From NCBI GenBank assembly GCA_023400055.1, contig JAEXFN010000005.1, positions 267,421-299,420 on the forward strand: 32,000 nucleotides of DNA, given 5' to 3'. This DNA comes from Bacillota bacterium (GTDB lineage Bacteria > Bacillota > UBA4882 > UBA8346). Under the pieces are notes generated by a model. That model saw only the letters and a list, made by a program, of their open reading frames with translations, did no database searches and was not told where the DNA came from. Positions 7,466-28,308 of the stretch are shown here, in pieces (positions within the stretch are counted from its first letter, which is position 1; each line of letters opens with the position of its first letter). The translations under genes and the position numbers were made by a program.

Positions 7466-7598
7466 AACTCACCCTCGCCCTCTCTTTTCTGAAAGAGAGG
7501 GTAACTTTGATCCTTCGTCGCCAAACTTATTCGCTGCCTCGAACCGGCTTTCCTTCCCGCTCTTTCTGTAAAAGAGGGAAGTCAGCGCCGGGAAGACT
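7466..7598. repeat. Composite palindromic (REP-like) element, copy A
   Basis: It contains two hairpins, CCCTCTCTTTTCTGAAAGAGAGGG (7478-7501) and CTTCCCGCTCTTTCTGTAAAAGAGGGAAG (7553-7581). Its modules (AACTCACCCTCGCCCTCTCTTT, ATTCGCTGC..CTTTCCTTCC, AAGTCAG.GCC.GGAAG.CT) recur in inverted orientation at 18341-18463. Confidence 0.8.
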
Positions 7599-7719
7599 TA
7601 AACTTGCAGCATCCGCGGATGGACTAGCCGTAAAGCGAGATGGGTAAGTTGTCCTCAAAGAGTTATATGAATAATTTGCAATGGAATTGAGATTAGATGA
7701 TTTCCGTGAAAGATAATTA

Positions 7720-7880: not shown

Positions 7881-8180
7881 AGGGCTCATCGCCGTCATGT
7901 CAGGGATGGTCTTTGGTCCTTTAGGGATGGTCGTCATCCCTAAAGGGATGAGACATGTCCGTGTTAGGGATGGTTTTCGCCCCTAAAAGGACCCGCGCAT
8001 CCTTGTTAGGTATGTCATGATCCGTGTAAGGGATGGTCTTCGTCCTTGTAAGGTATGTCATGGTCCTTTCATAGGACGGAACCATCCCTGCTTCCCCAAA
8101 GACCATCCCCACATCTTCGAACATCATCCCCGCTTCCTTAAGCCGGATCCATGTTGATCCGAGAGCCATCCCTGCTTCCA
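7881..8180. repeat. Degenerate tandem array of about 14 units of 20-22 bp (AGGGATGGTCTT-type mini-palindromes) that reverses orientation near 8075-8082
   Basis: Units start at 7881, 7902, 7923, 7944, 7966, 7988, 8008, 8029, 8051 and 8073. The reverse-complement word CCATCCC then occurs at 8082, 8103, (8124) and 8166 with the same 21-bp phase. Several units are hairpins, e.g. TTAGGGA-N9-TCCCTAA at 7921-7943. Confidence 0.85.
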
Positions 8181-8553: not shown

Positions 8554-9252
8554 ATGATGAATTTACGCGGCAAGTGTTTGGCCATCGGGTTGCTGGTTTT
8601 ATGGGCCGGCCTGACGGTGTCCGGTTCGACCCTGGCCGAGGGACGGGACCGGGAGTTCTATCTCAAGCTGAATCTGCAGAATTCCGGCCTCGAGGACGAT
8701 TTTGACGTTAACTTCTATGGCACCAAGGACAATACCAAGTTTGCCACCGCTCCCAAATTTGAATCCCATAACGGAGTGGGCCTGGCCATCGGCCAACGGA
8801 TCGGCCGGTTCGCCGGGGAGCTGAGCATGAGTCGGACCAAGTTGCCCGCCAGTTTCCGGCTTTATCAGCAAAGCACGTGGTTTTCCGATAAGAGTGACTG
8901 CGATCAATTCAGCCTGGATTTTAAGTATTATTTCAATGATCCGGCCCAAAGTCCGCTGGCGTTTTACGGGCTGCTGGGCGCCTGCAAAGTCAAGCTCGCG
9001 GTCGACGGCAATGTCGAGTACCAGAGCGGCGGCGTTTATGCCGGTTCGGATGATTCCACCTTCGAGGGCTACGGTCTGGACGCCGGAGTGGGACTGATTT
9101 ATCAATTCGGGCCCATCGCCCTGGATGCGGCGCTGCTCCAGCAGGACCTGCGCTTCAACCGGATTAAGATCGGCGGCACGAAGTACAAGCCCGAATCGGA
9201 TATCAAAAGTTCCGGGACGCTGGTCCGGCTCGGGATGCTTTACCGGTTTTAA
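8554..9252 (+). CDS. Outer-membrane beta-barrel protein (OmpA-beta-barrel/OMP_b-brl-like)
   Basis: SD AAGGAGGGGG is present. The signal peptide is 'MMNLRGKCLAIGLLVLWAGLTVSGSTLA|EG'. Beta-strand periodicity alternates with Gly/aromatic girdles, and the C-terminal 'LGMLYRF' carries the terminal Phe typical of BAM substrates. Confidence 0.75.
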   Translation: MMNLRGKCLAIGLLVLWAGLTVSGSTLAEGRDREFYLKLNLQNSGLEDDFDVNFYGTKDNTKFATAPKFESHNGVGLAIGQRIGRFAGELSMSRTKLPASFRLYQQSTWFSDKSDCDQFSLDFKYYFNDPAQSPLAFYGLLGACKVKLAVDGNVEYQSGGVYAGSDDSTFEGYGLDAGVGLIYQFGPIALDAALLQQDLRFNRIKIGGTKYKPESDIKSSGTLVRLGMLYRF

Positions 9253-9291
9253 GGTTTTAAAATGAATTGATACTTTGGTCGTTGAAAAACG

Positions 9292-9813
9292 GATCACGGA
9301 TTAAACGGATTGAAGGATGGCAAGGATTGAGAGTCCGAGAGTAAGGAGGGTCTTTTCCGTGAAATCCTTAAATCAGTGGAATCCGTGATTCAGTTCGTAT
9401 AATAAGCCCCGGGATCACGGATTAAACGGATTGAAGGATGACACGGATTGAGAGCCCGAGAACAGGGACGATTTTTTCTGTGAAATCCCTAAATCAGTGG
9501 AATCCGTGATTCAGTTCGTATAATAAGCCCCGGGATCACGGATTAAACGGATTGAAGGATGGCAAGGATTGAAAGTCCGAGAGCAGGGACGGTCTTTCCG
9601 TGAAATCCCTAAATCGGTGAAATCCGTGATTCGGTTCGTATAATAAACCCCGGGATCACGGATTAAACGGATTGAAGAATGGCGCGGATTAAGAGCCCGA
9701 GAGTAGGGATGGTTCTTTCTGTGAAATCCTTAAATCAGTGGAATCCGTGATTCCGTTCTTATAATAAGCCCCGGGATCACGGATTAAACGGATTCGAGGA
9801 TGACACGGATTAA
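9292..9813. repeat. Tandem array of a ~121-bp hairpin-forming unit (4 full copies plus a 38-nt truncated fifth)
   Basis: Units start at 9292, 9413, 9534, 9654 and 9775, with spacing 121/121/120/121. The 5' arm GATCACGGATTAAACGGATTGAAGGA is complementary to the 3' arm TCCTTAAATCAGTGGAATCCGTGAT. Each full unit ends in ..TTCGTATAATAAGCCCCGG. Confidence 0.95.
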
Positions 9814-9877
9814 AGCGTGGAACCAGTTGGAGTTTTTGCTCTATGATTCAGCATGTTTATGATCGGGGGGATATTCC

Positions 9878-10291
9878 TTGAAGTATCAAGAAATTACCGA
9901 AAAGATTATTGGATGCGCTTTTGAAGTCCATAAGTTTTTGGGGAATGGATTTCAAGAAGTAATTTATGAACGGGCCTTGGCTTTGGAAATGACTAAGGCA
10001 AAGCTGGCCTATGGGATGGAAGTAGAGATACCGATTTTCTATAAGGATTTTACTGAACCGATTGGTTTGCGGCGGGCCGATTTTATCGTCGAAGAAAAAG
10101 TACTGATTGAGCTAAAAGCCGTTACAAAAATGGAAGATGTACATTTGGCGCAAGCATTAAATTACTTAAAAGCATACCGCTTAGAAGTCGGCTTATTAAT
10201 AAACTTCGGAGCCAAAAGTCTAGAATTGAAGCGATTAATTCTAGATCATGGATTAAACGGATTAAACGGATTGAAGGATGGCAAGGATTGA
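9878..10291 (+). CDS. GxxExxY family protein (PD-(D/E)XK nuclease superfamily, PDDEXK_3-like)
   Basis: 'IIGCAFEVHKFLGNGFQEVIYERALALEM...RADFIVEEKVLIELKAV...HLAQALNYLKAYRLEVGLLINFG' contains the eponymous G-x-x-E-x-x-Y and the D..E.K nuclease core. The last ~15 codons (DHGLNGLNGLKDGKD) are encoded by the flanking repeat. Confidence 0.85.
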   Translation: MKYQEITEKIIGCAFEVHKFLGNGFQEVIYERALALEMTKAKLAYGMEVEIPIFYKDFTEPIGLRRADFIVEEKVLIELKAVTKMEDVHLAQALNYLKAYRLEVGLLINFGAKSLELKRLILDHGLNGLNGLKDGKD

Positions 10292-10348
10292 AAGTCCGAG
10301 AGCAGGGACGGTCTTTTCCGTGAAATCCTTAAATCAGTGGAATCCGTG
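10245..10348. repeat. Sixth copy of the 121-bp unit, with an internal AAACGGATT duplication, ending in the inverted terminus AATCCGTGATC
   Basis: The sequence GATCATGGATTAAACGGATTAAACGGATTGAAGGATGGCAAGGATTGAAAGTCCGAGAGCAGGGACGGTCTTTTCCGTGAAATCCTTAAATCAGTGGAATCCGTGATC is nearly identical to copy 3. Confidence 0.9.
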
Positions 10349-10537
10349 ATCGTTATTATGCTCTTTTTCCGCGGGATCCGCGATCCGGTTGGCTGGAAAT
10401 AACATGAAGATTACACCGCAATGACCAAATCCGAGCTGGCTACATATCATATACCATTGTCACAAGATAATATGTTGCACGAATCCGGGACGGACATAAA
10501 CTGATCGCAACATATTAAAGATGAGGAGCTGGTATGG

Positions 10538-12379
10538 ATGTGCGGAATAGCCGGATGGGTGGATTGGGAGGCCGATCTCCGCGGGGAACGGCCGCTGCTG
10601 GAAACGATGACGCGGCGGCTGGCGGCGCGCGGGCCGGACGCCGAGGGCTATTGGCTCGCGGAACACGCGGCCATCGGACACCGGCGGCTGATCGTGGTCG
10701 ACCCCGCCGGGGGCTGGCAACCGATGATTAAGCATTATGGCGAGCGGACCTATGTGTTGACCTATAACGGCGAGCTTTACAACACGGCGGAAGTCCGCGC
10801 CGAGCTGGAGGCGAAGGGGCACCATTTCGATTCGTACTCCGATACCGAAGTGGTACTGGTCGCCTACATCGAATGGGGTCCGGCCTGTGTGGAACGGTTT
10901 AACGGCATTTATGCCATCGGGATCTGGAGCGAAGCGGAGCAGTCGCTGTTCCTGGCCCGCGACCGGATGGGCGTCAAACCGCTTTTTTACGCCCGCCGAG
11001 GCGCAGCCCTGATTTTTGGTTCGGAGATTAAAGCGCTGCTGGCGCACACCCGGGTGGAAGCGGTGCTCGATGCGGACGGCGTGGCCGAGGTCTTCGGGCT
11101 GGGACCGGCCCGCACGCCGGGGCGGGGGGTTATCAAGGACGTCGCCGAGGTCCGGCCCGGCTATTGGCTGCTCTATGATCAAGCCCATGGCCTGAAGCTT
11201 CATCAATACTGGAAGTTGGAGAGCCATCCCCACACCGACAGCCTGGACACGACCGTGGAGCGGGTCCGCGAGCTGGTGGTCGACGCCATCCGGCGGCAGT
11301 TGGTCTCCGACGTCCCGGTCTGCACTTTCCTCTCGGGCGGCCTGGATTCCAGCGTCATCTCGACGGTGGCGGCCCAGGACTACCGGGCGGCCGGCAATGA
11401 GCCGCTGCGGACCTTCTCCATCGATTATCTGGATAACGACAAATACTTCAAGGCCAGCGCCTTCCAGCCCAATCCCGATCAGCCCTGGGTCGAGCGGATG
11501 GTCGATTTTCTGCAGACCCGTCATTTCCCGGTGCTGGTCGACACCCCCGAGGTTTACGGAGCTTTGCGTGACGCGGTGCTGGCGCGCGACTTGCCGGGCA
11601 TGGCCGACATCGATTCCTCGCTGTTCCTGTTCTGCCGGGAGATCAAAAAAGAAGCGACCGTAGCCCTGTCGGGCGAATGCGCCGATGAGATCTTCGGCGG
11701 ATATCCCTGGTTCCACCGGCCGGACGCGGTGGCGGCCGACACCTTCCCCTGGTCGCTGGCGGTGGATTTTCGGAACCAGTTGCTGGCGCCGGAGTGGCGC
11801 CACCGGATCGATCTGCGGCAGTACGTGACCGACCGTTACCGGGAGACCCTGGCGGAGGTGCCGCGGCTGGCCGGCGAGGACCGCATCGAGGAACGGCGGC
11901 GGGAGCTGTTCTATCTCAATCTGCACTGGTTCATGGCGGTGCTGCTGGACCGGAAGGACCGGATGAGCATGGCTTCGGGGCTGGAAGTGCGGGTGCCGTA
12001 TTGCGATCACCGGATCGTGGAATATGTCTGGAACATTCCCTGGGCCATGAAGACCTGCGAAGGCCGGGAGAAAGGCGTTTTGCGCAAGGCTGTCGCCGAT
12101 CTGCTCCCGGACGAGGTGGTCTGGCGCAAGAAGAGCCCGTATCCGAAGACGCACAATCCCAACTACTTTGAGCGGGTGAAGCGGGAGCTGCAAACGGTGC
12201 TGGCCGCCCCGGACAACCGGCTGCGCGAATTGATCGACGTCTCGACCATCGCCACCGCCGTCCAACAGCCCGATTTCAACGTGCCCTGGTTCGGCCAACT
12301 GATGACCGTGCCGCAACTGCTGGCCTATTTGATCCAGCTGGAGACCTGGCTGCGCGAGTATAAGATAACCATCCGTTGA
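10538..12379 (+). CDS. asnB: Asparagine synthase (glutamine-hydrolysing), AsnB/AsnO type
   Basis: The N-terminal 'MCGIAGW' provides the Cys2 nucleophile of class II amidotransferases. Also present are 'HRRL.IVD', 'YNGELYN', the PP-loop 'SGGLDSS' and 'LSGECADEIFGGY'. Length is 613 aa, and SD GAGGAG lies upstream. Confidence 0.95.
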   Translation: MCGIAGWVDWEADLRGERPLLETMTRRLAARGPDAEGYWLAEHAAIGHRRLIVVDPAGGWQPMIKHYGERTYVLTYNGELYNTAEVRAELEAKGHHFDSYSDTEVVLVAYIEWGPACVERFNGIYAIGIWSEAEQSLFLARDRMGVKPLFYARRGAALIFGSEIKALLAHTRVEAVLDADGVAEVFGLGPARTPGRGVIKDVAEVRPGYWLLYDQAHGLKLHQYWKLESHPHTDSLDTTVERVRELVVDAIRRQLVSDVPVCTFLSGGLDSSVISTVAAQDYRAAGNEPLRTFSIDYLDNDKYFKASAFQPNPDQPWVERMVDFLQTRHFPVLVDTPEVYGALRDAVLARDLPGMADIDSSLFLFCREIKKEATVALSGECADEIFGGYPWFHRPDAVAADTFPWSLAVDFRNQLLAPEWRHRIDLRQYVTDRYRETLAEVPRLAGEDRIEERRRELFYLNLHWFMAVLLDRKDRMSMASGLEVRVPYCDHRIVEYVWNIPWAMKTCEGREKGVLRKAVADLLPDEVVWRKKSPYPKTHNPNYFERVKRELQTVLAAPDNRLRELIDVSTIATAVQQPDFNVPWFGQLMTVPQLLAYLIQLETWLREYKITIR

Positions 12380-18289: not shown

Positions 18290-18340
18290 CTCACCCATCT
18301 AGCTTTGCGGTTATGTCCATCCATGGAAGCCGCAAGTTTA

Positions 18341-18463
18341 AGCCTTCCTGGCTCTGACTTCCCTCTCTTTTGCGGAAAGAGAGGGCGAGGGTGAGTTTGG
18401 TTTCAAGCTTCCATTTTTTGTTGCAAAAGAGGAAGGAAAGCTTGCTCAATGCAGCGAATAGAT
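18341..18463. repeat. Composite palindromic (REP-like) element, copy B (inverted relative to copy A)
   Basis: The sequence is AGCCTTCCTGGCTCTGACTT-CCCTCTCTTTTGCGGAAAGAGAGGG-CGAGGGTGAGTT ... CTTCC..AAAAGAGGAAGGAAAG ... GCAGCGAAT. Its reverse complement matches the modules of 7466-7598, including a 22-nt identical run AACTCACCCTCGCCCTCTCTTT. Confidence 0.8.
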
Positions 18464-21395: not shown

Positions 21396-23455
21396 GAAGA
21401 CCAAGACCCGCGGGCTTTAGAATATGGCATTGCATCGTTGCGTTATCCATTGGCGCATCGCTCTTGGCTTTTCCGGCCCGGGCGGAACAAAGCGCCCCAG
21501 CCAATCAAGTTCTTCAAGAAGTCCAAGGGGTCGCTACTCCGGGGTTGTCGACTTTTGACATTATTGATGCTGACATCCGCGATGTTTTACGTAGCCTGGC
21601 CGATCTCGGCGACATCAATGTTTTGATGGATCCGGCCGTCAAAGGTCCGGTAACCCTCAAGCTGAAACACGGCTTGAGCATCAAGGAAGCCATCGAACTC
21701 ATCAGCCAGACCAACGGTTATTCCTACCGCTGGATGAATGATTCCCGGACCGTAATCATCGGCGACGAAAAATCGTTCTCTAATTTCGAAGTTTCCCAGA
21801 CGAAAGTCTATCAACTCCATTACGCCCAGGCCGATCAATTGGCCGACGCTTTAAAGGGTTTGGTACCCAAGGATAAGCTGGGAATCGATCTGCGCACCAA
21901 TCAGGTTACCGTGAAGGCCAGTGTTTTGGAACTGCAAAACGTGGAGGAAGTCATCAATCGGCTCGATCGTCAAATGCCGCAGATTAATATCGAAGCCCGA
22001 ATCGAGGAAGTGACCCAATCCGCCAGCAAGGATTTGGGACTTGGCTACACTTTTGGTTCCGGAGGAAGTTTTTCTTATCCCAATCTGTTGGATTTTAAGA
22101 TTACGACCACCGCTACGCTGAGTGCTTTGGAGCAACAGAACAAGGCGCGGATGTTGGCCCAACCCAATATTTCCACCACCGATAGCCACGAAGGGAAGAT
22201 CTTCATCGGCAACAAGTACCCGGTTATCACCTCCAAGGCTAATTCCAACGGTGGCACCGATGTTACAGTAACGTATCTGGAGTTTGGTACTAGTTTGACG
22301 GTCACCCCGCGCATTAATGAAAAAGGGATCGTTACCGTTTCGATCAATGCCTTTGTAAGCTCGGCGACCGATTGGAAGACCGCCTCGGACGGCAGCCAAA
22401 TTCCGGTGATTACCACCCGCGAGGCCAGTTCGGTGGTACGGCTTAAAGATGGAGAAACCTTTGTGCTCTCAGGTTTAAACATGAAGAAATCTTCCTTGGG
22501 TACTTCGGAAGTGCCCGGATTGGCCAAAATCCCGTTACTCGGGAATCTGTTCCGGAGTAAAAGTGATAAAATGTATGATGATAGCGAGATCTGCATCTTC
22601 TTGACGCCGAAGATTAGCGGCGGCGACTTTCAAGCCAATAAACCGGCGGCAGTTTCACAAAATCAGTCCTCAAAGACTGAACCCCAGGGAACGAAACCTA
22701 GCCCGGTCCAACAAAATGCTGAACCGGCTGTTTCGACGGGTCCGTCAAACCCCGCCCCGGCACAAAGCAAGCCATCTGCACAGACGCAGCAGGGAGCTAC
22801 TACGACCCCTAAAGCGGATAATGCGGCGCAAAACGCGACAACCGACATCGCTCTTAAGACTGAAAGCAGTGCTTCAACCACCACCGTGACATCCGCTTCC
22901 GGAAATTCCGGGGTAAATCAGGCAACAGCAGCTGCCTCAATAGCGGACCAACAACCGACGCAACCCGCCGACCAAACTCAGGCGCAGGTGGAACTCCAGC
23001 CTCAACCGGGAACTACCGCGCCCGCCGTTGAGGTGCAAGATAACGCGGCGAGTGATGCCACTGGGACGACAGTGAGTGTCCAAGAACCGGACATCAATCA
23101 ACAACCGGCCCAGCCGGAGCCGGGAATGCGATTGACCATTCACGTGCGACGGGGCGAAGGCTTAACGGGCATTGCCCGACGCTATGGAATCGACCCCGCA
23201 GTACTTGCCAGTGAAAATCATTTAGCGCCCAATGCCGGCCTGCAGATTAACCAGCGGTTGGTCGTTCCGATACCCAGCGATCATTTGTATCAAGTAAAAC
23301 CCAATGAGACTTTGTGGCGGATTGCCAAACGGTATGGGATCCCGCTCGAAACCCTGCAGAAACTCAATGGCATCCAGGATATCAAAAAGGTCGCGGTGGG
23401 CAGGACATTGATTTTACCGGTGGCGGTGGATCATATAGTTGATAAGAGCGTTTGA
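21392..23455 (+). CDS. pilQ: Type IV pilus secretin PilQ with C-terminal low-complexity linker and two LysM domains
   Basis: The signal peptide is '...LLAFPARA|EQ'. An N0/STN-like domain ('IRDVLRSLADLGDINVLMDP...') and a Secretin_N domain precede the secretin core ('ARMLAQPNISTTDSHEGKIFIG...', 'VPGLAKIPLLGNLFRSK...ICIFLTPKI'). A Q/P/T/A-rich segment of about 168 aa follows. Two LysM-like repeats end the protein ('GEGLTGIARRYGIDPAVLASENHL...INQRLVVP', 'NETLWRIAKRYGIPLETLQKLNGI...VGRTLILP'). Confidence 0.9.
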   Translation: MRRPRPAGFRIWHCIVALSIGASLLAFPARAEQSAPANQVLQEVQGVATPGLSTFDIIDADIRDVLRSLADLGDINVLMDPAVKGPVTLKLKHGLSIKEAIELISQTNGYSYRWMNDSRTVIIGDEKSFSNFEVSQTKVYQLHYAQADQLADALKGLVPKDKLGIDLRTNQVTVKASVLELQNVEEVINRLDRQMPQINIEARIEEVTQSASKDLGLGYTFGSGGSFSYPNLLDFKITTTATLSALEQQNKARMLAQPNISTTDSHEGKIFIGNKYPVITSKANSNGGTDVTVTYLEFGTSLTVTPRINEKGIVTVSINAFVSSATDWKTASDGSQIPVITTREASSVVRLKDGETFVLSGLNMKKSSLGTSEVPGLAKIPLLGNLFRSKSDKMYDDSEICIFLTPKISGGDFQANKPAAVSQNQSSKTEPQGTKPSPVQQNAEPAVSTGPSNPAPAQSKPSAQTQQGATTTPKADNAAQNATTDIALKTESSASTTTVTSASGNSGVNQATAAASIADQQPTQPADQTQAQVELQPQPGTTAPAVEVQDNAASDATGTTVSVQEPDINQQPAQPEPGMRLTIHVRRGEGLTGIARRYGIDPAVLASENHLAPNAGLQINQRLVVPIPSDHLYQVKPNETLWRIAKRYGIPLETLQKLNGIQDIKKVAVGRTLILPVAVDHIVDKSV

Positions 23456-23482
23456 GGCGTTCAACAATTTATTTTTTTAAAA

Positions 23483-23512
23483 CCAGGGGTGTTCCAACGA
23501 CCCTGGTTTTTT
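23483..23512 (+). terminator. Rho-independent terminator after pilQ
   Basis: CCAGGG(G)..(A)CCCTGG forms a stem (23483-23506), followed by TTTTTT (23507-23512). Confidence 0.75.
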
Positions 23513-23634
23513 ATTTGTATAAAGGAATAAAATGTAAGGGAATTAATAGTTTTGGAGGAAATTAAATACAAATAAAGAATATATATTTTGGGAAATTACT
23601 TTCTTTAAAAATTTTAGTTCAGGGATATCAAAAT

Positions 23635-24096
23635 ATGGAGAAGGGATTTGCGATGAATTTTTGGGGCAGAGAACGGGGCCTTACGTTAATCGAGACTTTG
23701 GTAGCCGTGTTGATCTTTAGTATCGCAATGCTTGCGGTATCGTCTGCGTTTAAGCTATTAAGTTCAGTTCCATCGCAATCCAAAGAAAGAGTCACCGCTG
23801 TCTATCTAGCAAAGGAACAGTTGGAGTTACTCAAACGCTTCGATGAATCTGGCAACGACCGCACTGCGTTTGCGGCAAAGATCGGTAACGATAAGGAAAT
23901 TAAGCCTTCATATTCTCGGGAAATCAACAACATAACCTATAAAGTCACAACTTCATTAATCACTAATCAGACATCCTCGGCCACCGTAAACTTTAAAAGT
24001 AGCGATATCGTACCAGTGCGGGTAATAGTTTACTGGGACTTTATGGGAAGGGCAAATTCATTATCACTAGAAACTTGTATTGTTCAAGGCTATTAG
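23635..24096 (+). CDS. Type IV minor pilin (PilV/GspI-like) (set B); true start possibly the ATG at 23653
   Basis: 'MNFWGRERG|LTLIETLVAVLIFSIAMLAV' is a class III signal with Glu5. GGAGAAGGG lies 7 nt upstream of the internal ATG at 23653. Confidence 0.85.
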   Translation: MEKGFAMNFWGRERGLTLIETLVAVLIFSIAMLAVSSAFKLLSSVPSQSKERVTAVYLAKEQLELLKRFDESGNDRTAFAAKIGNDKEIKPSYSREINNITYKVTTSLITNQTSSATVNFKSSDIVPVRVIVYWDFMGRANSLSLETCIVQGY

Positions 24097-24111
24097 GAAG
24101 GGCTGAGAAAG

Positions 24112-24588
24112 ATGGATAATGACCGACAAGCTGGTTTTACGATTTTGGAAATGCTCTTAGCTCTGACCTTACTCGTTTTGATTGCGGTTGCGGTCGCCAA
24201 TACCATAAAGATTCCTTTTCAAGCTCAAGCAACTACCGCGGCCACATTGAGTGAGATTCAGCAGTCGCGGTTATTAATCAACAAAATATTTGATGAATTG
24301 CGGCTGTCAAAAATTATCATTCCTTCGTCGGACAAGACTAGTCTTACTTATCGCCTGCCCTATGATACAACGGACCGCAAGTTTTTTATGGGAAATGATC
24401 ATCTACTCTATAATCAATTGGGTTCCAAGGTTAAACTGGTTACGAGACGCACTGCTAAAGAAGTAAGGTTTAGCTATAATCCGGATGATCCGAAAGGGGA
24501 GACGCTGGACGTTATCATTACATTTCCGGATTCATCCACCTTGTCCACTACGGTCAAAGCATTAAATATTGGCGTAGAGGAGGAATGA
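24112..24588 (+). CDS. Type IV minor pilin (PilW/GspJ-like) (set B)
   Basis: 'MDNDRQAG|FTILEMLLALTLLVLIAVAV' is a class III signal with Glu5. It is tightly packed between the neighbouring pseudopilin genes. Confidence 0.85.
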   Translation: MDNDRQAGFTILEMLLALTLLVLIAVAVANTIKIPFQAQATTAATLSEIQQSRLLINKIFDELRLSKIIIPSSDKTSLTYRLPYDTTDRKFFMGNDHLLYNQLGSKVKLVTRRTAKEVRFSYNPDDPKGETLDVIITFPDSSTLSTTVKALNIGVEEE

Positions 24589-24589
24589 C

Positions 24590-26038
24590 ATGATGAAGAA
24601 CCAAGAAGGAGCAGCGCTTCCTATGGTTTTAGGTATAGTAACCCTCTTATTTATTGTAGTAGCCGCCTTAATGCCTTTATTAACCAATGAAGTCCGTTTC
24701 TCAAGTATTGACACTAATACGGTTATTATGCATTACGCTGCTGAAGCTGCAGTCAAGAACGCGATGAAGGAAATTCAAGCCATGCTCTGCACGCCAGGGA
24801 CTATCGATTTTTCGAAGATACCGAAGAAGACCGTATCGGGTATAAAAATTTCGGATTCTTCTCCGGTGACACTTTCATATGAATATGGATATGGAACGGA
24901 TGCTAGCAATCAGCCTAGGTTTACAATTAAGGGAACCGGTAATTATGGCAGTTTGACCGATATTGTTTACGCCAATGTCTATTTACGAGTGAGTCCAGTA
25001 AAAGTATATCCAGAAGGCGTGGTTGACCTCATTAACACTGGATTTTATTCGCATACCGATCATAATCCGAATAGTGGGATAAATAAAGAGGCACGTTGGG
25101 GAATTGACAAAACGGTCCAACCCAATACCGCCGATCCGAACATTCCAGGACTGGATGCTTCCCAGATTATGTTCTCGGCTGCAAGCGAAAAGGATAACTT
25201 AGACATAGCTTATCGGGCGATTGCAACTTATATGACAGGTAAAAATTCCAACGGAGGCGGTTATGGAATCTATTATGGTATGATCGGAAATGCCGACAAT
25301 ATGAATGCTTACGTTTTTCAATACGACCCGGGGGCATGCAATGATACTTCCAAGAGGTATTCGGCATATGATTATAAAACGACAGGGGGTACAATGTTAG
25401 TCAAAAAGGTGATTTTCGAACCTAATGTGTATGCGGATACCTCAGGAGTCAGTTCCAAGTTTAAAACAAACACTGCAAAAAGCCCAGGTTACCAAGAAAA
25501 AAATAATTGGGGAATAGCAAGTGGGAGCGATTCAAATTATTATGCCCTTCCCTTTGAAGAGGCACAAAAATACGGCAGTGTAACAGAAGTACTACGGGTA
25601 CCCCTCTATACGTCTGATGAAACCTATAAAAGTGGAAATACAACTTATTCTAATGGTGCAAGCCTTCAAACTCAAATGAATAAATACTATACTGAAAGCG
25701 GCAAATCTGCTAATTTTAATCCGAAAGATGCACACACAATTGATATTAGAGTAAACATGGACACAGATGGCCGCTTTTGGCACAAAATTTATGTAGACGA
25801 TAATCCAAATCCCATATTAAAATTTGTTGACCACTCAACCAAAAGCACAAAGACGGGCACGGTTTTAGCCGGGGATTATATCATCGACGGTAAGACCCGG
25901 ATGTTCCGTGGGACATATAATGGGCTTCGTGCGTGGTCTCAAGATAATGTAAAGGTAACATTTTTAAATGAAAACCATAAGGAAGATAACAATACTCAGC
26001 TTGTTTATAAGTCAAGAATTTGGGGAAAGTATAATTAA
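24590..26038 (+). CDS. Large PilX_N-type minor pilin / putative pilus-tip protein with an uncharacterised Tyr/Asn/Lys-rich globular domain (set B)
   Basis: SD GGAGGAGGAA is present. The N-terminus 'QEGAALPMVLGIVTLLFIVVAALMPLL...MHYAAEAAVKNAMKEI' parallels that of the 474-aa set-A protein. I recognise no motif in the remaining ~400 aa. Confidence 0.65.
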   Translation: MMKNQEGAALPMVLGIVTLLFIVVAALMPLLTNEVRFSSIDTNTVIMHYAAEAAVKNAMKEIQAMLCTPGTIDFSKIPKKTVSGIKISDSSPVTLSYEYGYGTDASNQPRFTIKGTGNYGSLTDIVYANVYLRVSPVKVYPEGVVDLINTGFYSHTDHNPNSGINKEARWGIDKTVQPNTADPNIPGLDASQIMFSAASEKDNLDIAYRAIATYMTGKNSNGGGYGIYYGMIGNADNMNAYVFQYDPGACNDTSKRYSAYDYKTTGGTMLVKKVIFEPNVYADTSGVSSKFKTNTAKSPGYQEKNNWGIASGSDSNYYALPFEEAQKYGSVTEVLRVPLYTSDETYKSGNTTYSNGASLQTQMNKYYTESGKSANFNPKDAHTIDIRVNMDTDGRFWHKIYVDDNPNPILKFVDHSTKSTKTGTVLAGDYIIDGKTRMFRGTYNGLRAWSQDNVKVTFLNENHKEDNNTQLVYKSRIWGKYN

Positions 26039-27896: not shown

Positions 27897-28075
27897 ATAT
27901 TAACGCTGGCCTTGTTGCAACTTAAATCCGATTATCAAATTAACTCGGCCAGGGAATGCACAGTAACTTTGTTTTCTTAAACTATCTAGACAATCAGAGT
28001 AACAATCAATATTTGATATTTTAATATTTTATTGAAATATGCTAATATTGTGTCGTGAATTTCTATTTCATTGCC

Positions 28076-28308
28076 GGATAATTTAATTATTGAGTTGAAA
28101 ATATTGATTATCGAGAACGATAATTCGTTTTTTCAGATCGAAAATTTTATTTTTCAGATCGATAATTAAATTATCGTGATGAAAAAATTGATTATCGTGA
28201 TCGAAAGATCGATTGTCATGATCGAAAGATCAATTATCGTGATCGAAAATTTAATTCTTCGGCTGGAAAATTGAATTATCGGGAACGAGAAATTAATTAT
28301 CGTAGCTG
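28076..28308. repeat. AT-rich tandem array of 11 degenerate 20-22-bp units (consensus about GAAAAWTNAATTATCGTGATC), GATC-dense
   Basis: Units start at 28076, 28097, 28119, 28140, 28161, 28181, 28203, 28224, 28245, 28266 and 28287. There are seven GATC sites within 28136-28244. Junctions form the palindrome TGATC-GAAA-GATCA. Confidence 0.85.

What the first reader, a model, noticed from the sequence alone, without database searches (positions are those of the whole stretch)
9292..10348. Tandem 121-bp hairpin units with inverted termini, interrupted by a GxxExxY (PD-(D/E)XK) gene whose C-terminus is written by the repeat
**Seen in the sequence**
- Four full head-to-tail copies and one truncated copy of a ~121-bp unit precede the gene, and one further copy follows it.
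- The copies are roughly 85-90% identical by eye.
- Each unit can fold into a long imperfect hairpin, with GATCACGGATTAAACGGATTGAAGGA pairing to TCCTTAAATCAGTGGAATCCGTGAT.
- The word ACGGATT/AATCCGT occurs about five times per unit, and every tandem unit ends in a TATAAT hexamer.
- The fifth copy stops after 38 nt. About 65 nt of unique sequence and the 137-aa GxxExxY ORF follow.
- The last 15 codons of that ORF (DHGLNGLNGLKDGKD) are the 5' arm of the sixth copy, which ends in the exact inverted terminus AATCCGTGATC.

**Inference**
- The 574-bp segment 9775-10348 looks like a gene-carrying version of the element, and the 121-bp units look like miniature gene-less derivatives bounded by the same inverted termini. 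This is a MITE-like or homing-like relationship in which the small nuclease would be the mobility function.
- Alternatively, each unit is a promoter plus a structured small RNA.
- From memory only, GxxExxY ORFs in other phyla often carry similar repeat-encoded tails. I cannot verify this here.
- I saw no clear compensatory substitutions between arms among the copies.
Basis: partly seen in the sequence, partly recalled or inferred. Interest (0 to 1): 0.7.

Follow-up and report, generated by a model that had tools for sequence, protein, structure and literature searches.

The report
Tiny nuclease element with hairpin offspring
The 121-bp hairpin repeats are gene-less copies of a very small (about 475 bp), very widespread bacterial DNA element whose two inverted arms enclose only a GxxExxY nuclease gene; no paper in the library searched describes it, and it gives this large nuclease family of unknown function a testable role.

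Summary
There are four tandem 120-121-bp hairpin units, a truncated fifth, a 137-aa GxxExxY (PD-(D/E)XK) ORF, and a sixth hairpin that encodes the last 15 codons.

It is not a local oddity.
- The arm sequence occurs in at least 120 loci across many phyla.
- In 67 of 67 usable, protein-ascertained relatives, the GxxExxY gene is flanked by the same arms.
- The commonest form (30 of 67) is 5' arm - gene - 3' arm, about 475 bp. Ten loci have the window's layout.
- More distant GxxExxY subfamilies are also flanked by inverted arms, but these are built from different 9-nt modules.
- The gene (dN/dS about 0.04) and the arm termini are both strongly conserved, although synonymous sites are saturated.
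- A sibling strain lacks the whole 1,037-bp block.
- Wobble pairs show no strand bias, there is no Rfam match, and there is no terminator tail, so an RNA role is not favoured.

Best reading: a composite copy of a minimal inverted-repeat element together with its MITE-like derivatives. That the nuclease drives mobility is inferred, not shown. I found no description of this in the literature.

The parts
9292..9412 (+). Unit 1: gene-less hairpin (9292-9389) plus 23-nt linker containing TATAAT
9413..9533 (+). Unit 2: gene-less hairpin plus linker
9534..9653 (+). Unit 3: gene-less hairpin plus linker (120 nt). Its linker is the only one that passes the promoter scan.
9654..9774 (+). Unit 4: gene-less hairpin plus linker
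9775..9812 (+). Unit 5: 5' arm only (about 38 nt). It is 75% complementary to 10308-10351, 489 nt away, and so forms the outer left arm of the gene-carrying copy.
   Evidence: (I2)
9813..9877 (+). 65-nt leader with a G-rich, Shine-Dalgarno-like run before the TTG start. By eye, its last ~23 nt resemble the leader of the nearest relative (L126); the MAFFT alignment did not pair them.
9878..10291 (+). GxxExxY / PDDEXK_3 nuclease ORF, 137 aa. The domain is residues 4-121. D68, E78 and K80 are invariant. Residues 123-137 are encoded by the arm and predicted disordered.
10244..10351 (+). Hairpin 6: a full gene-less-type hairpin with one extra 9-nt module. Its 5' arm is the ORF tail and it ends in AATCCGTGATC.
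10373..10386 (+). Possible decayed 3'-terminus remnant (GGGATCCGCGATCC). It reads GAAATCCGCGATCC in the sibling strain.
   Evidence: read by eye, weak
9294..10330 (.). 1,037-bp block (array, gene and most of hairpin 6) that is absent from the sibling-strain contig L128. GC is 42-46%, against about 58% or more in the adjacent flanks (up to 63-65% across asnB).

Best explanation
**What it is.** The locus is a composite copy of a minimal inverted-repeat element.
- The full-length family form is about 475 bp: a ~45-nt 5' arm, a ~375-nt GxxExxY PD-(D/E)XK nuclease gene, and a ~50-nt 3' arm.
- Each arm has a 16-nt terminal inverted repeat (consensus GTCTGAATCACGGATT), followed by subterminal ~9-nt modules (NNNCGGATT).
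- The gene-less form is the two arms joined by a short loop, which is the hairpin.
- Here the terminus has decayed to GATCACGGATT.

**Layout in the window.** The gene-carrying copy has a truncated upstream hairpin and a complete downstream hairpin. The upstream hairpin plus 23 nt of adjoining sequence has been amplified in tandem, to 4 units here and 3 in one other assembly.

**The repeat-written tail.** Because the arm abuts the end of the nuclease domain, the ORF reads into it until a stop appears. The 15-residue tail is a by-product.

**Proposed mechanism (inferred, not shown).**
1. The nuclease recognises the module arrays of its own arms.
2. It cuts at the ends or at the centre of the palindrome.
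3. Copies spread by recombination-dependent copying or transposition. Gene-less hairpins are mobilised in trans or serve as landing sites.
4. Tandem arrays arise by unequal recombination or replication slippage.

**Expression (inferred).** It probably depends on read-through from the upstream host gene. Elements typically sit on that gene's stop codon, in the same orientation.
For: **Shown**
About 9 would be my own rough estimate for a random 19-mer. Most hits extend to the same GTCTGA...TCAGAC termini.
2. In 80 loci ascertained by protein similarity, 67 of 67 usable ones have arm motifs next to the gene, against about 4% of background windows.
   - 30 are 5' arm - gene - 3' arm.
   - 10 have the window's layout.
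   - 11 are hairpin - gene - hairpin.
3. Element length clusters at 461-479 bp. GxxExxY is the only ORF found between closely spaced arm pairs, in about 40 elements.
4. More distant subfamilies (37-46% identical) are also flanked by inverted arms, but built from other 9-nt modules: CACAGAGG, CACGAAG, CACAGATT. Module type therefore tracks protein subfamily.
5. Selection on the gene is strong: pN 0.12, pS 0.84 (saturated), dN/dS about 0.04. The terminal 16 nt of the arms differ by only 0.09 in the same pairs.
6. Contig L128, from a sibling strain with near-identical flanks, lacks the 1,037-bp block. The block has 42-46% GC, against about 58% or more in the adjacent flanks.
7. The same element appears in different contexts. 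L140 and L141 have elements 100% identical with unrelated downstream DNA. L167 and L179 have elements 95% identical but kinase flanks only 77% identical.
8. Nested and tandem copies occur elsewhere (L095, L109, L016, L042, L045).
9. The catalytic D...ExK residues are invariant. The AlphaFold model (pLDDT 90.7) is closest to the Cas4 nuclease core.
10. There is no excess of sense-strand wobble pairs: 5 G.U against 8 A.C in gene-carrying elements, and 33 against 20 in the fold-energy comparison. This favours DNA-level recognition.
Against: - No nuclease activity, cleavage site or transposition intermediate is known.
- No short target-site duplication flanks the copies.
- The junction in L128 keeps 21 nt of the 3' arm, so it could be a deletion rather than an empty site.
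- Histidine-kinase insertions are flanked by 65-88-nt duplications of the kinase 3' end. Neither simple transposition nor simple homing predicts this.
- Only about 10% of hairpin loci found with the DNA word have a GxxExxY gene nearby. Whether genomes rich in hairpins always encode a matching nuclease could not be checked.
- dN/dS of 0.04 is very low and would also fit a gene useful to the host.
- Whether the 121-bp unit occurs elsewhere in this particular genome is unknown.
Confidence: 0.6

Rival explanations
1. **RNA-level element.** The arms form stems in the transcript, acting as processing, stabilising or punctuation signals. This would resemble 23S rRNA intervening sequences or REP elements. 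GxxExxY would be a passenger, or an RNA-hairpin nuclease acting on its own message.
For: - The hairpins are stable.
- They sit at the 3' ends of genes.
- The gene is co-oriented with the upstream gene and starts about 45 nt after that gene's stop, with no room for its own promoter.
- Structural neighbours include tRNA-splicing endonucleases.
Against: - There is no excess of G.U over A.C pairs on the sense strand.
- Fold energies are similar on both strands across 55 copies.
- Gene-less hairpins abut gene ends in either orientation.
- There is no U-tract terminator.
- There is no Rfam match, even for consensus-type copies.
- Beyond the first 16 nt the arms share modules rather than strict complementarity.
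Confidence: 0.15
2. **Cassette system moved by a recombinase encoded elsewhere (integron-like).** The hairpins would be recombination sites. GxxExxY would simply be the commonest promoterless cargo.
For: - The layouts hairpin - gene - hairpin and arm - gene - arm-loop-arm are what integration of a circle at a repeated site would give.
- So are the flanking direct repeats: 27 nt in L126 and 65-88 nt at kinase genes.
- The cassettes are co-oriented with the upstream gene.
Against: - Only one kind of cargo was found between the arms.
- Solo arms have no consistent neighbouring ORF.
- Module type changes with the GxxExxY subfamily. A shared trans-acting recombinase would not predict this.
- There are no attC-type core sites (GTTRRRY).
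- No integrase is among the genes called around the window locus, though this was not searched for systematically.
Confidence: 0.12
3. **Promoter plus structured small RNA.** Each unit would be a TATAAT promoter driving a hairpin RNA.
For: A perfect TATAAT occurs in all four linkers. One linker scores 10 of 12 as a sigma-70 site.
Against: - Promoter-like sites are no more frequent than in shuffles.
- TATAAT is absent from the linkers and flanks of related arrays.
- There is no Rfam family, no covariation and no terminator.
Confidence: 0.03
4. **Purely local tandem duplication** with no link to the gene and no wider family.
For: The exact 121-bp unit, including its linker, was seen only at this locus.
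Against: The arms occur in at least 120 loci across phyla, and they flank GxxExxY genes in 67 of 67 relatives.
Confidence: 0.02

Closest known systems
MITEs and their parent insertion sequences (for example Correia/NEMIS, Nezha, MITEAba12)
   Same: - Short, non-coding, hairpin-capable copies share terminal inverted repeats with a longer, protein-coding version.
- Copies are dispersed, nested and intergenic.
   Different: - The coding version holds only a ~125-aa PD-(D/E)XK nuclease, not a DDE, HUH, serine or tyrosine transposase.
- No short target-site duplication was found.
- The whole 'autonomous' form is only about 475 bp.
- The arms carry several subterminal 9-nt modules.
REP / REPIN elements and RAYT (TnpA-REP) genes
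   Same: - Palindromic repeats lie at the 3' ends of genes.
- A small gene is flanked by its own repeats, and its protein is thought to act on them.
   Different: - RAYTs are HUH Y1 enzymes, usually one per genome. GxxExxY is a PD-(D/E)XK fold.
- Here the gene lies inside the palindrome.
- The arms are conserved across phyla.
Homing endonuclease genes, including the PD-(D/E)XK enzyme I-Ssp6803I
   Same: - A small, free-standing nuclease gene sits inside a recognisable site that also exists in an unoccupied form.
- There is presence/absence polymorphism.
   Different: - The 'site' is a dispersed palindromic repeat rather than a unique conserved host gene.
- There is no intron or intein.
- Cleavage is untested.
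- The duplications at kinase genes are not a homing signature.
23S rRNA intervening sequences with or without an ORF (from my own knowledge: Leptospira, Coxiella)
   Same: The same dichotomy: a hairpin alone, or the hairpin arms enclosing one small ORF.
   Different: - This locus is not in an rRNA gene.
- The ORF family is different (four-helix-bundle protein).
- There is no evidence here for RNase III processing.
Integron gene cassettes and attC sites
   Same: - Imperfect hairpin sites follow promoterless, co-oriented ORFs.
- Arrays form, and gene-less units exist.
   Different: - There are no R''/R' core sites and no IntI.
- There is a single cargo type.
- The arm sequence co-varies with the cargo protein.
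Rickettsia palindromic elements (from my own knowledge)
   Same: Palindromic repeats are translated as part of host ORFs.
   Different: Here the translated part is a C-terminal tail at the junction, not an in-frame internal insertion. The sequences are unrelated.
Cas4 / RecB-type nuclease domains
   Same: The best structural match is SSO0001 (4ic1), at Foldseek probability about 1. There is also a weak Cas4b profile hit.
   Different: - There is no Fe-S cluster module.
- The protein is about 125 aa with no partner domains.
- There is no CRISPR context.

Membership tests
GxxExxY protein (TIGR04256) / PDDEXK_3 (PF13366) | Profile match above the curated cut-off | tested here: met
   132.2 bits against a cut-off of 35; 126.8 bits against a cut-off of 22
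GxxExxY protein (TIGR04256) / PDDEXK_3 (PF13366) | PD-(D/E)XK catalytic residues and fold | tested here: met
   G24, E27, Y30, D68, E78 and K80 are invariant in 42 sequences down to 37% identity. The model (pLDDT 90.7) has the alpha-alpha-beta-beta-beta-alpha-beta core and is closest to Cas4.
MITE | Short, non-coding, with terminal inverted repeats | tested here: met
   98-nt hairpins; inverted arms of 34-44 nt
MITE | A longer coding element with the same termini exists | tested here: met
   Arm - GxxExxY - arm in 30 of 67 loci; lengths 461-479 bp
MITE | Short target-site duplication | tested here: not met
   None at the window/L128 junction, nor in 27 complete copies. Only long duplications at kinase genes.
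MITE | Many dispersed copies in the same genome | tested here: inconclusive
   There is only one locus in the 32-kb window and the source genome was not identified. Other genomes have many copies, for example at least 10 loci in Desulfamplus magnetovallimortis.
MITE | Parent encodes a recognised transposase class | tested here: not met
   The only ORF is a PD-(D/E)XK nuclease
REP/RAYT | HUH Y1 transposase gene flanked by the repeats | tested here: not met
   The flanked gene is PF13366
Homing endonuclease gene | Occupied and unoccupied alleles of the same site | tested here: inconclusive
   L128 lacks the block but keeps 21 nt of an arm. Gene-less hairpins may be unoccupied sites, but this is an inference.
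Homing endonuclease gene | Site-specific cleavage of the unoccupied allele | not testable with these tools
   Needs biochemistry
Integron cassette / attC | R''/R' core sites (RYYYAAC ... GTTRRRY) and an IntI integrase | tested here: not met
   The termini are GATCACGGATT / AATCCGTGATC. No integrase is among the genes called around the locus.
CRISPR array | Repeats separated by unique spacers | tested here: not met
   The 23-nt linkers are near-identical. The CRISPR-DR25 hit has E = 9.2.
Any Rfam RNA family | Covariance-model match at gathering score | tested here: not met
   0 matches in the window and in 10 related loci. The best sub-threshold E-value is 0.9.
Intrinsic terminator | GC-rich stem followed by a U-tract | tested here: not met
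   0 sites in 9100-10600
23S rRNA intervening sequence | Located in a 23S rRNA helix | tested here: not met
   No rRNA in the window. The locus lies between an outer-membrane barrel protein gene and asnB.

The most novel reading that the evidence does not exclude
GxxExxY elements would be a previously unrecognised class of minimal autonomous mobile DNA.
- Each is about 475 bp and encodes a ~125-aa PD-(D/E)XK nuclease as its only protein.
- The nuclease would recognise the 9-nt module arrays of its own arms and propagate by nuclease-triggered copying into palindromic sites, or by a new kind of transposition.
- Gene-less hairpins would be left as offspring or as landing pads at the 3' ends of genes.
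- This would make it the smallest self-mobilising element known in bacteria. It would also assign a function to a family with about 23,000 clusters at 50% identity.
Probability: 0.35. Interest if true: 0.9.

Novelty: new variant of a known kind. Interest (0 to 1): 0.78.

Why it matters
- **A function for a large unknown family.** GxxExxY/PDDEXK_3 has 23,154 cluster representatives at E <= 1e-3. It is multi-copy in many phyla. The 2012 survey of the superfamily lists its function as unknown.
- **A concrete, testable role.** The gene is embedded between conserved inverted arms, gene-less hairpins share those arms, and arm modules change with the protein subfamily. Together these suggest a nuclease acting on its own repeat.
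- **Explains annotation noise.**
  - Odd low-complexity C-terminal tails such as GLNGL, SRIKRIK and KSVKSINP.
  - Host genes whose stop codon is supplied by the repeat (23 of 49 loci).
  - Assembly breaks inside the arrays.
- **If the nuclease is the mobility enzyme,** this would be an unusually small mobile element with an enzyme class not used alone by known insertion sequences.

Tried and rejected
- **Rfam.** Gathering and E-value modes on the window, and gathering mode on 10 consensus-type loci, gave nothing.
- **Literature.** GxxExxY, PF13366/TIGR04256, the arm sequences, 'four helix bundle/IVS protein', and PDDEXK with MITE gave no description of the element. One query failed on syntax.
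- **Strand-bias tests for an RNA fold.** Arm-against-arm transitions were 91 against 107. Fold energy favoured one strand 33 against 20 (p = 0.054). Gene-carrying elements had 5 G.U against 8 A.C. None gave a usable bias. An earlier RNAfold-based count (168 G.U against 35 A.C) was discarded because the folding itself favours G.U.
- **Other cargo genes.** Searches behind solo 5' arms and between arm pairs found none.
- **Target-site duplications.** None were found. The inverted repeat merely extends by about 2 AT-rich bases.
- **Co-variation inside the subfamily.** Clustering proteins against terminal A/G variants was uninformative, because all fell in one cluster.
- **More relatives of the flanking barrel protein.** Only one cluster exists, so only two alleles of the locus are known.
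- **Organism identity.** Cluster look-ups carry no names.
- **Phage and defence links.** There was no match in the phage collection. PADLOC gave only weak Cas4b hits.
- **Leader homology to L126.** The MAFFT alignment of the leader was not convincing. The resemblance of its last ~23 nt to L126 rests on reading the sequences, not on that alignment.
Full report
**1. The observation**

The sequence is as described.
- Tandem Repeats Finder finds a 121-bp period, 4.3 copies and 88% matches at 9291-9811.
- Units start at 9292, 9413, 9534, 9654 and 9775.
- Each full unit is a ~98-nt imperfect hairpin plus a 23-nt linker that contains TATAAT.
- Folded as RNA, the units reach -38.9 to -45.3 kcal/mol, with z-scores of -2.3 to -4.3 against dinucleotide shuffles for the four units and -4.6 for the sixth hairpin (-40.7 kcal/mol). 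The opposite strand folds too.
- The fifth unit stops after about 38 nt. A 65-nt leader follows.
- The ORF at 9878-10291 (137 aa) matches TIGR04256 'GxxExxY' (1.1e-38) and PF13366 PDDEXK_3 (7e-37) over residues 4-121 only.
- Codons 123-137 are the 5' arm of a sixth hairpin at 10244-10351.
- ACGGATT occurs 20 times in the window, 19 of them here, against 6.35 expected.
- The five full copies show one compensatory pair and several broken ones.
  - The terminus ends at 10351, not 10348.
  - The exact heptamer occurs about 3 times per unit.
  - Unit 3 is 120 nt.
  - TATAAT lies 9-10 nt before the end of each unit.

**2. The locus in other samples**

Exact look-up of the ORF product finds the same locus in five metagenome contigs.
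- The sequences are identical.
- One assembly (L004) has one unit fewer, with a chimeric unit 2/3.
- Three contigs break inside the array, and one carries an N-gap there.

The upstream barrel-protein gene has a single near relative, P0123 at 98% identity. Its contig L128 was seen in two samples. There the barrel gene and asnB are 247 nt apart, instead of 1,285 nt.

Against near-identical flanks, L128 lacks window 9294-10330. These 1,037 nt are the whole array, the gene and most of hairpin 6.
- The junction reads ...GAAAAACGGA|AAATCAGTGAAATCCGTGATCG...
- The last 21 nt of a 3' arm remain, and no direct repeat flanks the junction.
- So there is a presence/absence polymorphism, but its direction (insertion or deletion) is not settled.
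- The block has 42-46% GC, against about 58% or more in the adjacent flanks and up to 63-65% across asnB. It is therefore compositionally foreign.

**3. The arm is a cross-phylum sequence**

My own rough estimate for a random 19-mer of this kind is about 9.

The hits come from Bacteroidota, Cyanobacteria (Planktothrix, Pseudanabaena), Poribacteria, Desulfamplus, Anaerolineae, Ignavibacteria, Chlorobiaceae, Thiomargarita and others. At least two (L024, L118) look like coincidences inside coding sequence.

The remaining hits share a longer consensus:

(T)TGTCTGA-ATCACGGATTAAACGGATTAAAGGATTACACGGATT ... loop ... AATCC-type modules ... AATCCGTGAT-TCAGACA(A)

- The window's units are a decayed version. 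They have lost GTCTGA at the 5' end and keep only TCAG at the 3' end.
- Copies occur singly, nested (5' arms stacked, then 3' arms: L095, L109) and in tandem arrays with other periods (47, 66, 143 and 451 bp).
- They lie next to the 3' ends of genes on either side:
  - The left neighbour points toward the repeat in 69 cases and away in 20.
  - The right neighbour points toward it in 23 cases and away in 13.
- The neighbour's stop codon is often the TGA of GTCTGA.
- Reading through the 5' arm in the three frames gives V*, LNHGLNGL... or SESRIKRIK.... This explains the window's tail.

**4. The gene lies between the arms**

The 120 nearest homologues (71-86% identical, mostly Bacteroidota) end in tails that translate these modules: SQKSAKSINP, TQNQRNP, SESRIKQIKG.

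I then took 80 metagenome loci found by protein patterns alone. Of these, 67 had enough flank to score, and all 67 have an arm motif next to the gene. Background 200-nt windows have one in 31 and 29 of 825 cases.

| Layout | Loci |
|---|---|
| 5' arm - gene - 3' arm | 30 |
| 5' arm - gene - full hairpin (the window's layout) | 10 |
| hairpin - gene - hairpin | 11 |
| hairpin - gene - 3' arm | 5 |
| other or incomplete (an arm motif scored on one side only, or a 5' arm only downstream) | 11 |

- In the first class the gene starts about 42 nt after ATCAC. The 3' terminus lies 18-36 nt after the domain ends.
- Whole elements measure 461-479 bp in most cases.
- No ORF other than GxxExxY was found between closely spaced arm pairs, and solo arms have no consistent neighbour.
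- The two arms share a perfect 16-nt terminal repeat, followed by modules with arm-specific spacers.
- The nearest homologue (85%, L126) is hairpin - leader - gene - hairpin. The whole structure is flanked by a 27-nt direct repeat.
- Its downstream hairpin aligns along its length with the window's hairpin 6.
- By eye, the last ~23 nt before its start codon resemble the window's leader, but the MAFFT alignment did not pair them.

**5. Other subfamilies have other modules**

GxxExxY genes that are 37-46% identical to the window's were found on plasmids and in a Bacteroides-centred subfamily. They are also bracketed by inverted arms or hairpins, but built from different 9-nt modules:
- TTCACCACAGAGGNCACAGAGG / CCTCTGTGGTGAA (L212, L214, L217, L218)
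- CACAGAGA (L211)
- CACGAAG / CTTCGTGGTGAA (L213)
- AACCACAGATT / AATCTGTGGTT (L216)
- a single ACACGGATTCG pair (L210)

All share a CAC-purine-purine-A core. Gene-less units and arrays accompany them too (L214, L217). Protein subfamily and arm module therefore change together. That is what specific recognition of the arms by the protein would predict.

**6. Selection and movement**

- Across the 80 genes, pN is 0.12 while pS is 0.84 (saturated). dN/dS is about 0.04 where it can be measured.
- In the same pairs, the terminal 16 nt of the arms differ by only 0.09.
- The cross-phylum similarity is therefore long-term constraint on both gene and termini, not recent transfer.
- Elements can be more alike than their surroundings:
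  - L140 and L141 carry elements 100% identical, followed by unrelated DNA.
  - L167 and L179 carry elements 95% identical in kinase genes that are 77% identical.

**7. DNA or RNA?**

These results favour recognition of double-stranded DNA sequence at both ends over a transcript structure, without excluding the latter:
- Fold energies do not clearly favour one strand (33 against 20 of 55 copies, p = 0.054).
- Arm-against-arm transitions give 91 wobble-compatible changes against 107 for the other strand.
- In 17 distinct gene-carrying elements, where the sense strand is known, the terminal 16 bp show 247 Watson-Crick pairs, 5 G.U, 8 A.C and 12 others.
- There is no U-tract terminator, and promoter-like sites are no more frequent than in shuffles.
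- Rfam has nothing, even for consensus-type copies.

**8. The protein**

- G24, E27, Y30, D68, E78 and K80 are invariant across both subfamilies.
- With the more diverse alignment, AlphaFold gives pLDDT 90.7. The repeat-encoded tail (residues 125-137) scores below 50.
- Foldseek places the core nearest to Cas4 SSO0001 (E about 1e-3, probability about 1). Next come splicing endonucleases, AdnAB, a lambda-exonuclease-like enzyme and the Hjc resolvase.
- There is no solved relative by sequence, and only a weak Cas4b profile hit.
- The family has 23,154 representatives at 50% identity. The 2012 superfamily survey lists its function as unknown.

**9. How it most likely works**

*Shown:*
- the anatomy of the locus
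- the family-wide link between gene and arms
- conservation of both gene and arm termini
- the change of module type with protein subfamily
- the polymorphism between sibling strains
- the lack of strand bias

*Inferred:*
- The nuclease binds the module arrays of its own arms and cuts at the ends or at the palindrome centre.
- Copies spread by repair-dependent copying or by transposition.
- Gene-less hairpins are deletion derivatives moved in trans, or landing sites into whose loop the gene is copied.
- Tandem arrays come from unequal recombination or slippage.
- The gene is expressed by read-through from the upstream gene. In 39 of 49 loci a same-strand ORF ends at the 5' arm, and in 23 of these on the arm's own TGA.

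I put about 0.9 on the 'gene-less derivative of a GxxExxY inverted-repeat element' part. I put about 0.5 on the nuclease being the mobility enzyme.

**10. What does not fit**

About 20 of the loci sit on the stop codon of histidine-kinase genes (...EGEGSEFIIQLPVV*).
- Most of those with enough downstream sequence are followed by a second copy of the last ~29 kinase codons. This copy is 65-88 nt long and 76-99% identical to the upstream one.
- One locus (L170) holds two tandem [kinase end + element] units.
- L160 and L183 lack the duplicate.
- A circular [element + flank] integrating by recombination, or one-ended repair, would produce this. Simple cut-and-paste or classical homing would not.
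- I leave this unexplained. It is the main support for the cassette-type rival.

**11. Comparison with known systems and novelty**

- The closest analogy is a MITE and its parent element. Membership fails on the target-site duplication and on the transposase class.
- REP/RAYT, homing endonuclease genes, ORF-bearing rRNA intervening sequences and integron cassettes each share one or two features and fail on others (see the membership table).
- No paper in the searchable library contains the arm sequence or links GxxExxY/PDDEXK_3 to repeats.
- I rate it a new variant of a known kind: an inverted-repeat element with miniature derivatives.
- There is a substantial chance that the mechanism is of a new class.

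Noticed in passing
L140, L141, L145, L154, L155, L167, L168, L170, L175, L179, L201 (metagenome loci): GxxExxY elements sit on the stop codon of histidine-kinase genes. They are followed by a duplicate of the last ~29 kinase codons (65-88 nt, 76-99% identical). L170 has two tandem [kinase end + element] units.
   Followed up: partly
L126 3770-4560 (GCA_023415735.1, JAEZJN010000070.1): The nearest homologue's hairpin - gene - hairpin block is flanked by a 27-nt direct repeat, AACGCGCGGCATCTGCCGGGCGTTTTT, which looks like a terminator. A CTCTGTG/CACAGAG-type hairpin of the other module family lies about 300 nt upstream.
   Followed up: partly
L214 about 1180-1300: About ten head-to-tail copies of the 9-nt module TACACAGAG form the 5' arm of a hairpin next to a distant GxxExxY gene.
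   Followed up: no
L048 6772-7194: A GxxExxY gene whose profile match is split in two, with about 33 nt of extra sequence between the halves.
   Followed up: no
proteins P0245, P0256, P0271, P0294 and others: Proteins of about 250-290 aa hold two GxxExxY domains in tandem. These may be fused neighbouring elements or genuine pseudo-dimers.
   Followed up: no
window 7466-7624 and 18315-18460: An inverted repeat of about 150 nt (83-90% complementary) with arms 10.7-10.9 kb apart. Both arms lie upstream of outward-facing type IV pilus genes (a 165-aa ORF with no Pfam match, with an N_methyl prepilin-like ORF just beyond it, and PilM). They bracket the barrel gene, the hairpin block, asnB and pilB/T/C. 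They could be paralogous leaders or the ends of an invertible segment.
   Followed up: partly
window 7900-8110: Repeats of 21-43 nt (TTAGGGATGGTC...) with an internal inverted pair (7903-7931 / 8081-8109), upstream of the barrel-protein gene.
   Followed up: no
window 28058-28303: An AT-rich stretch (27% GC) of 21/42/84-nt tandem repeats containing GATC (GATCGAAAAATTAATTATCGT, 8 copies), upstream of an amidohydrolase gene.
   Followed up: no
window 23200-26000: A stretch of 38-43% GC encodes two N-methyl (prepilin-type) proteins and a 482-aa protein with no Pfam match, inside a type IV pilus cluster of otherwise roughly 50-60% GC.
   Followed up: partly
L001-L005 against the window, 9292-9775: Copy number of the 121-bp unit differs between assemblies (3 against 4 full units), and contigs often end inside the array. 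This could be real variation or assembly collapse.
   Followed up: partly
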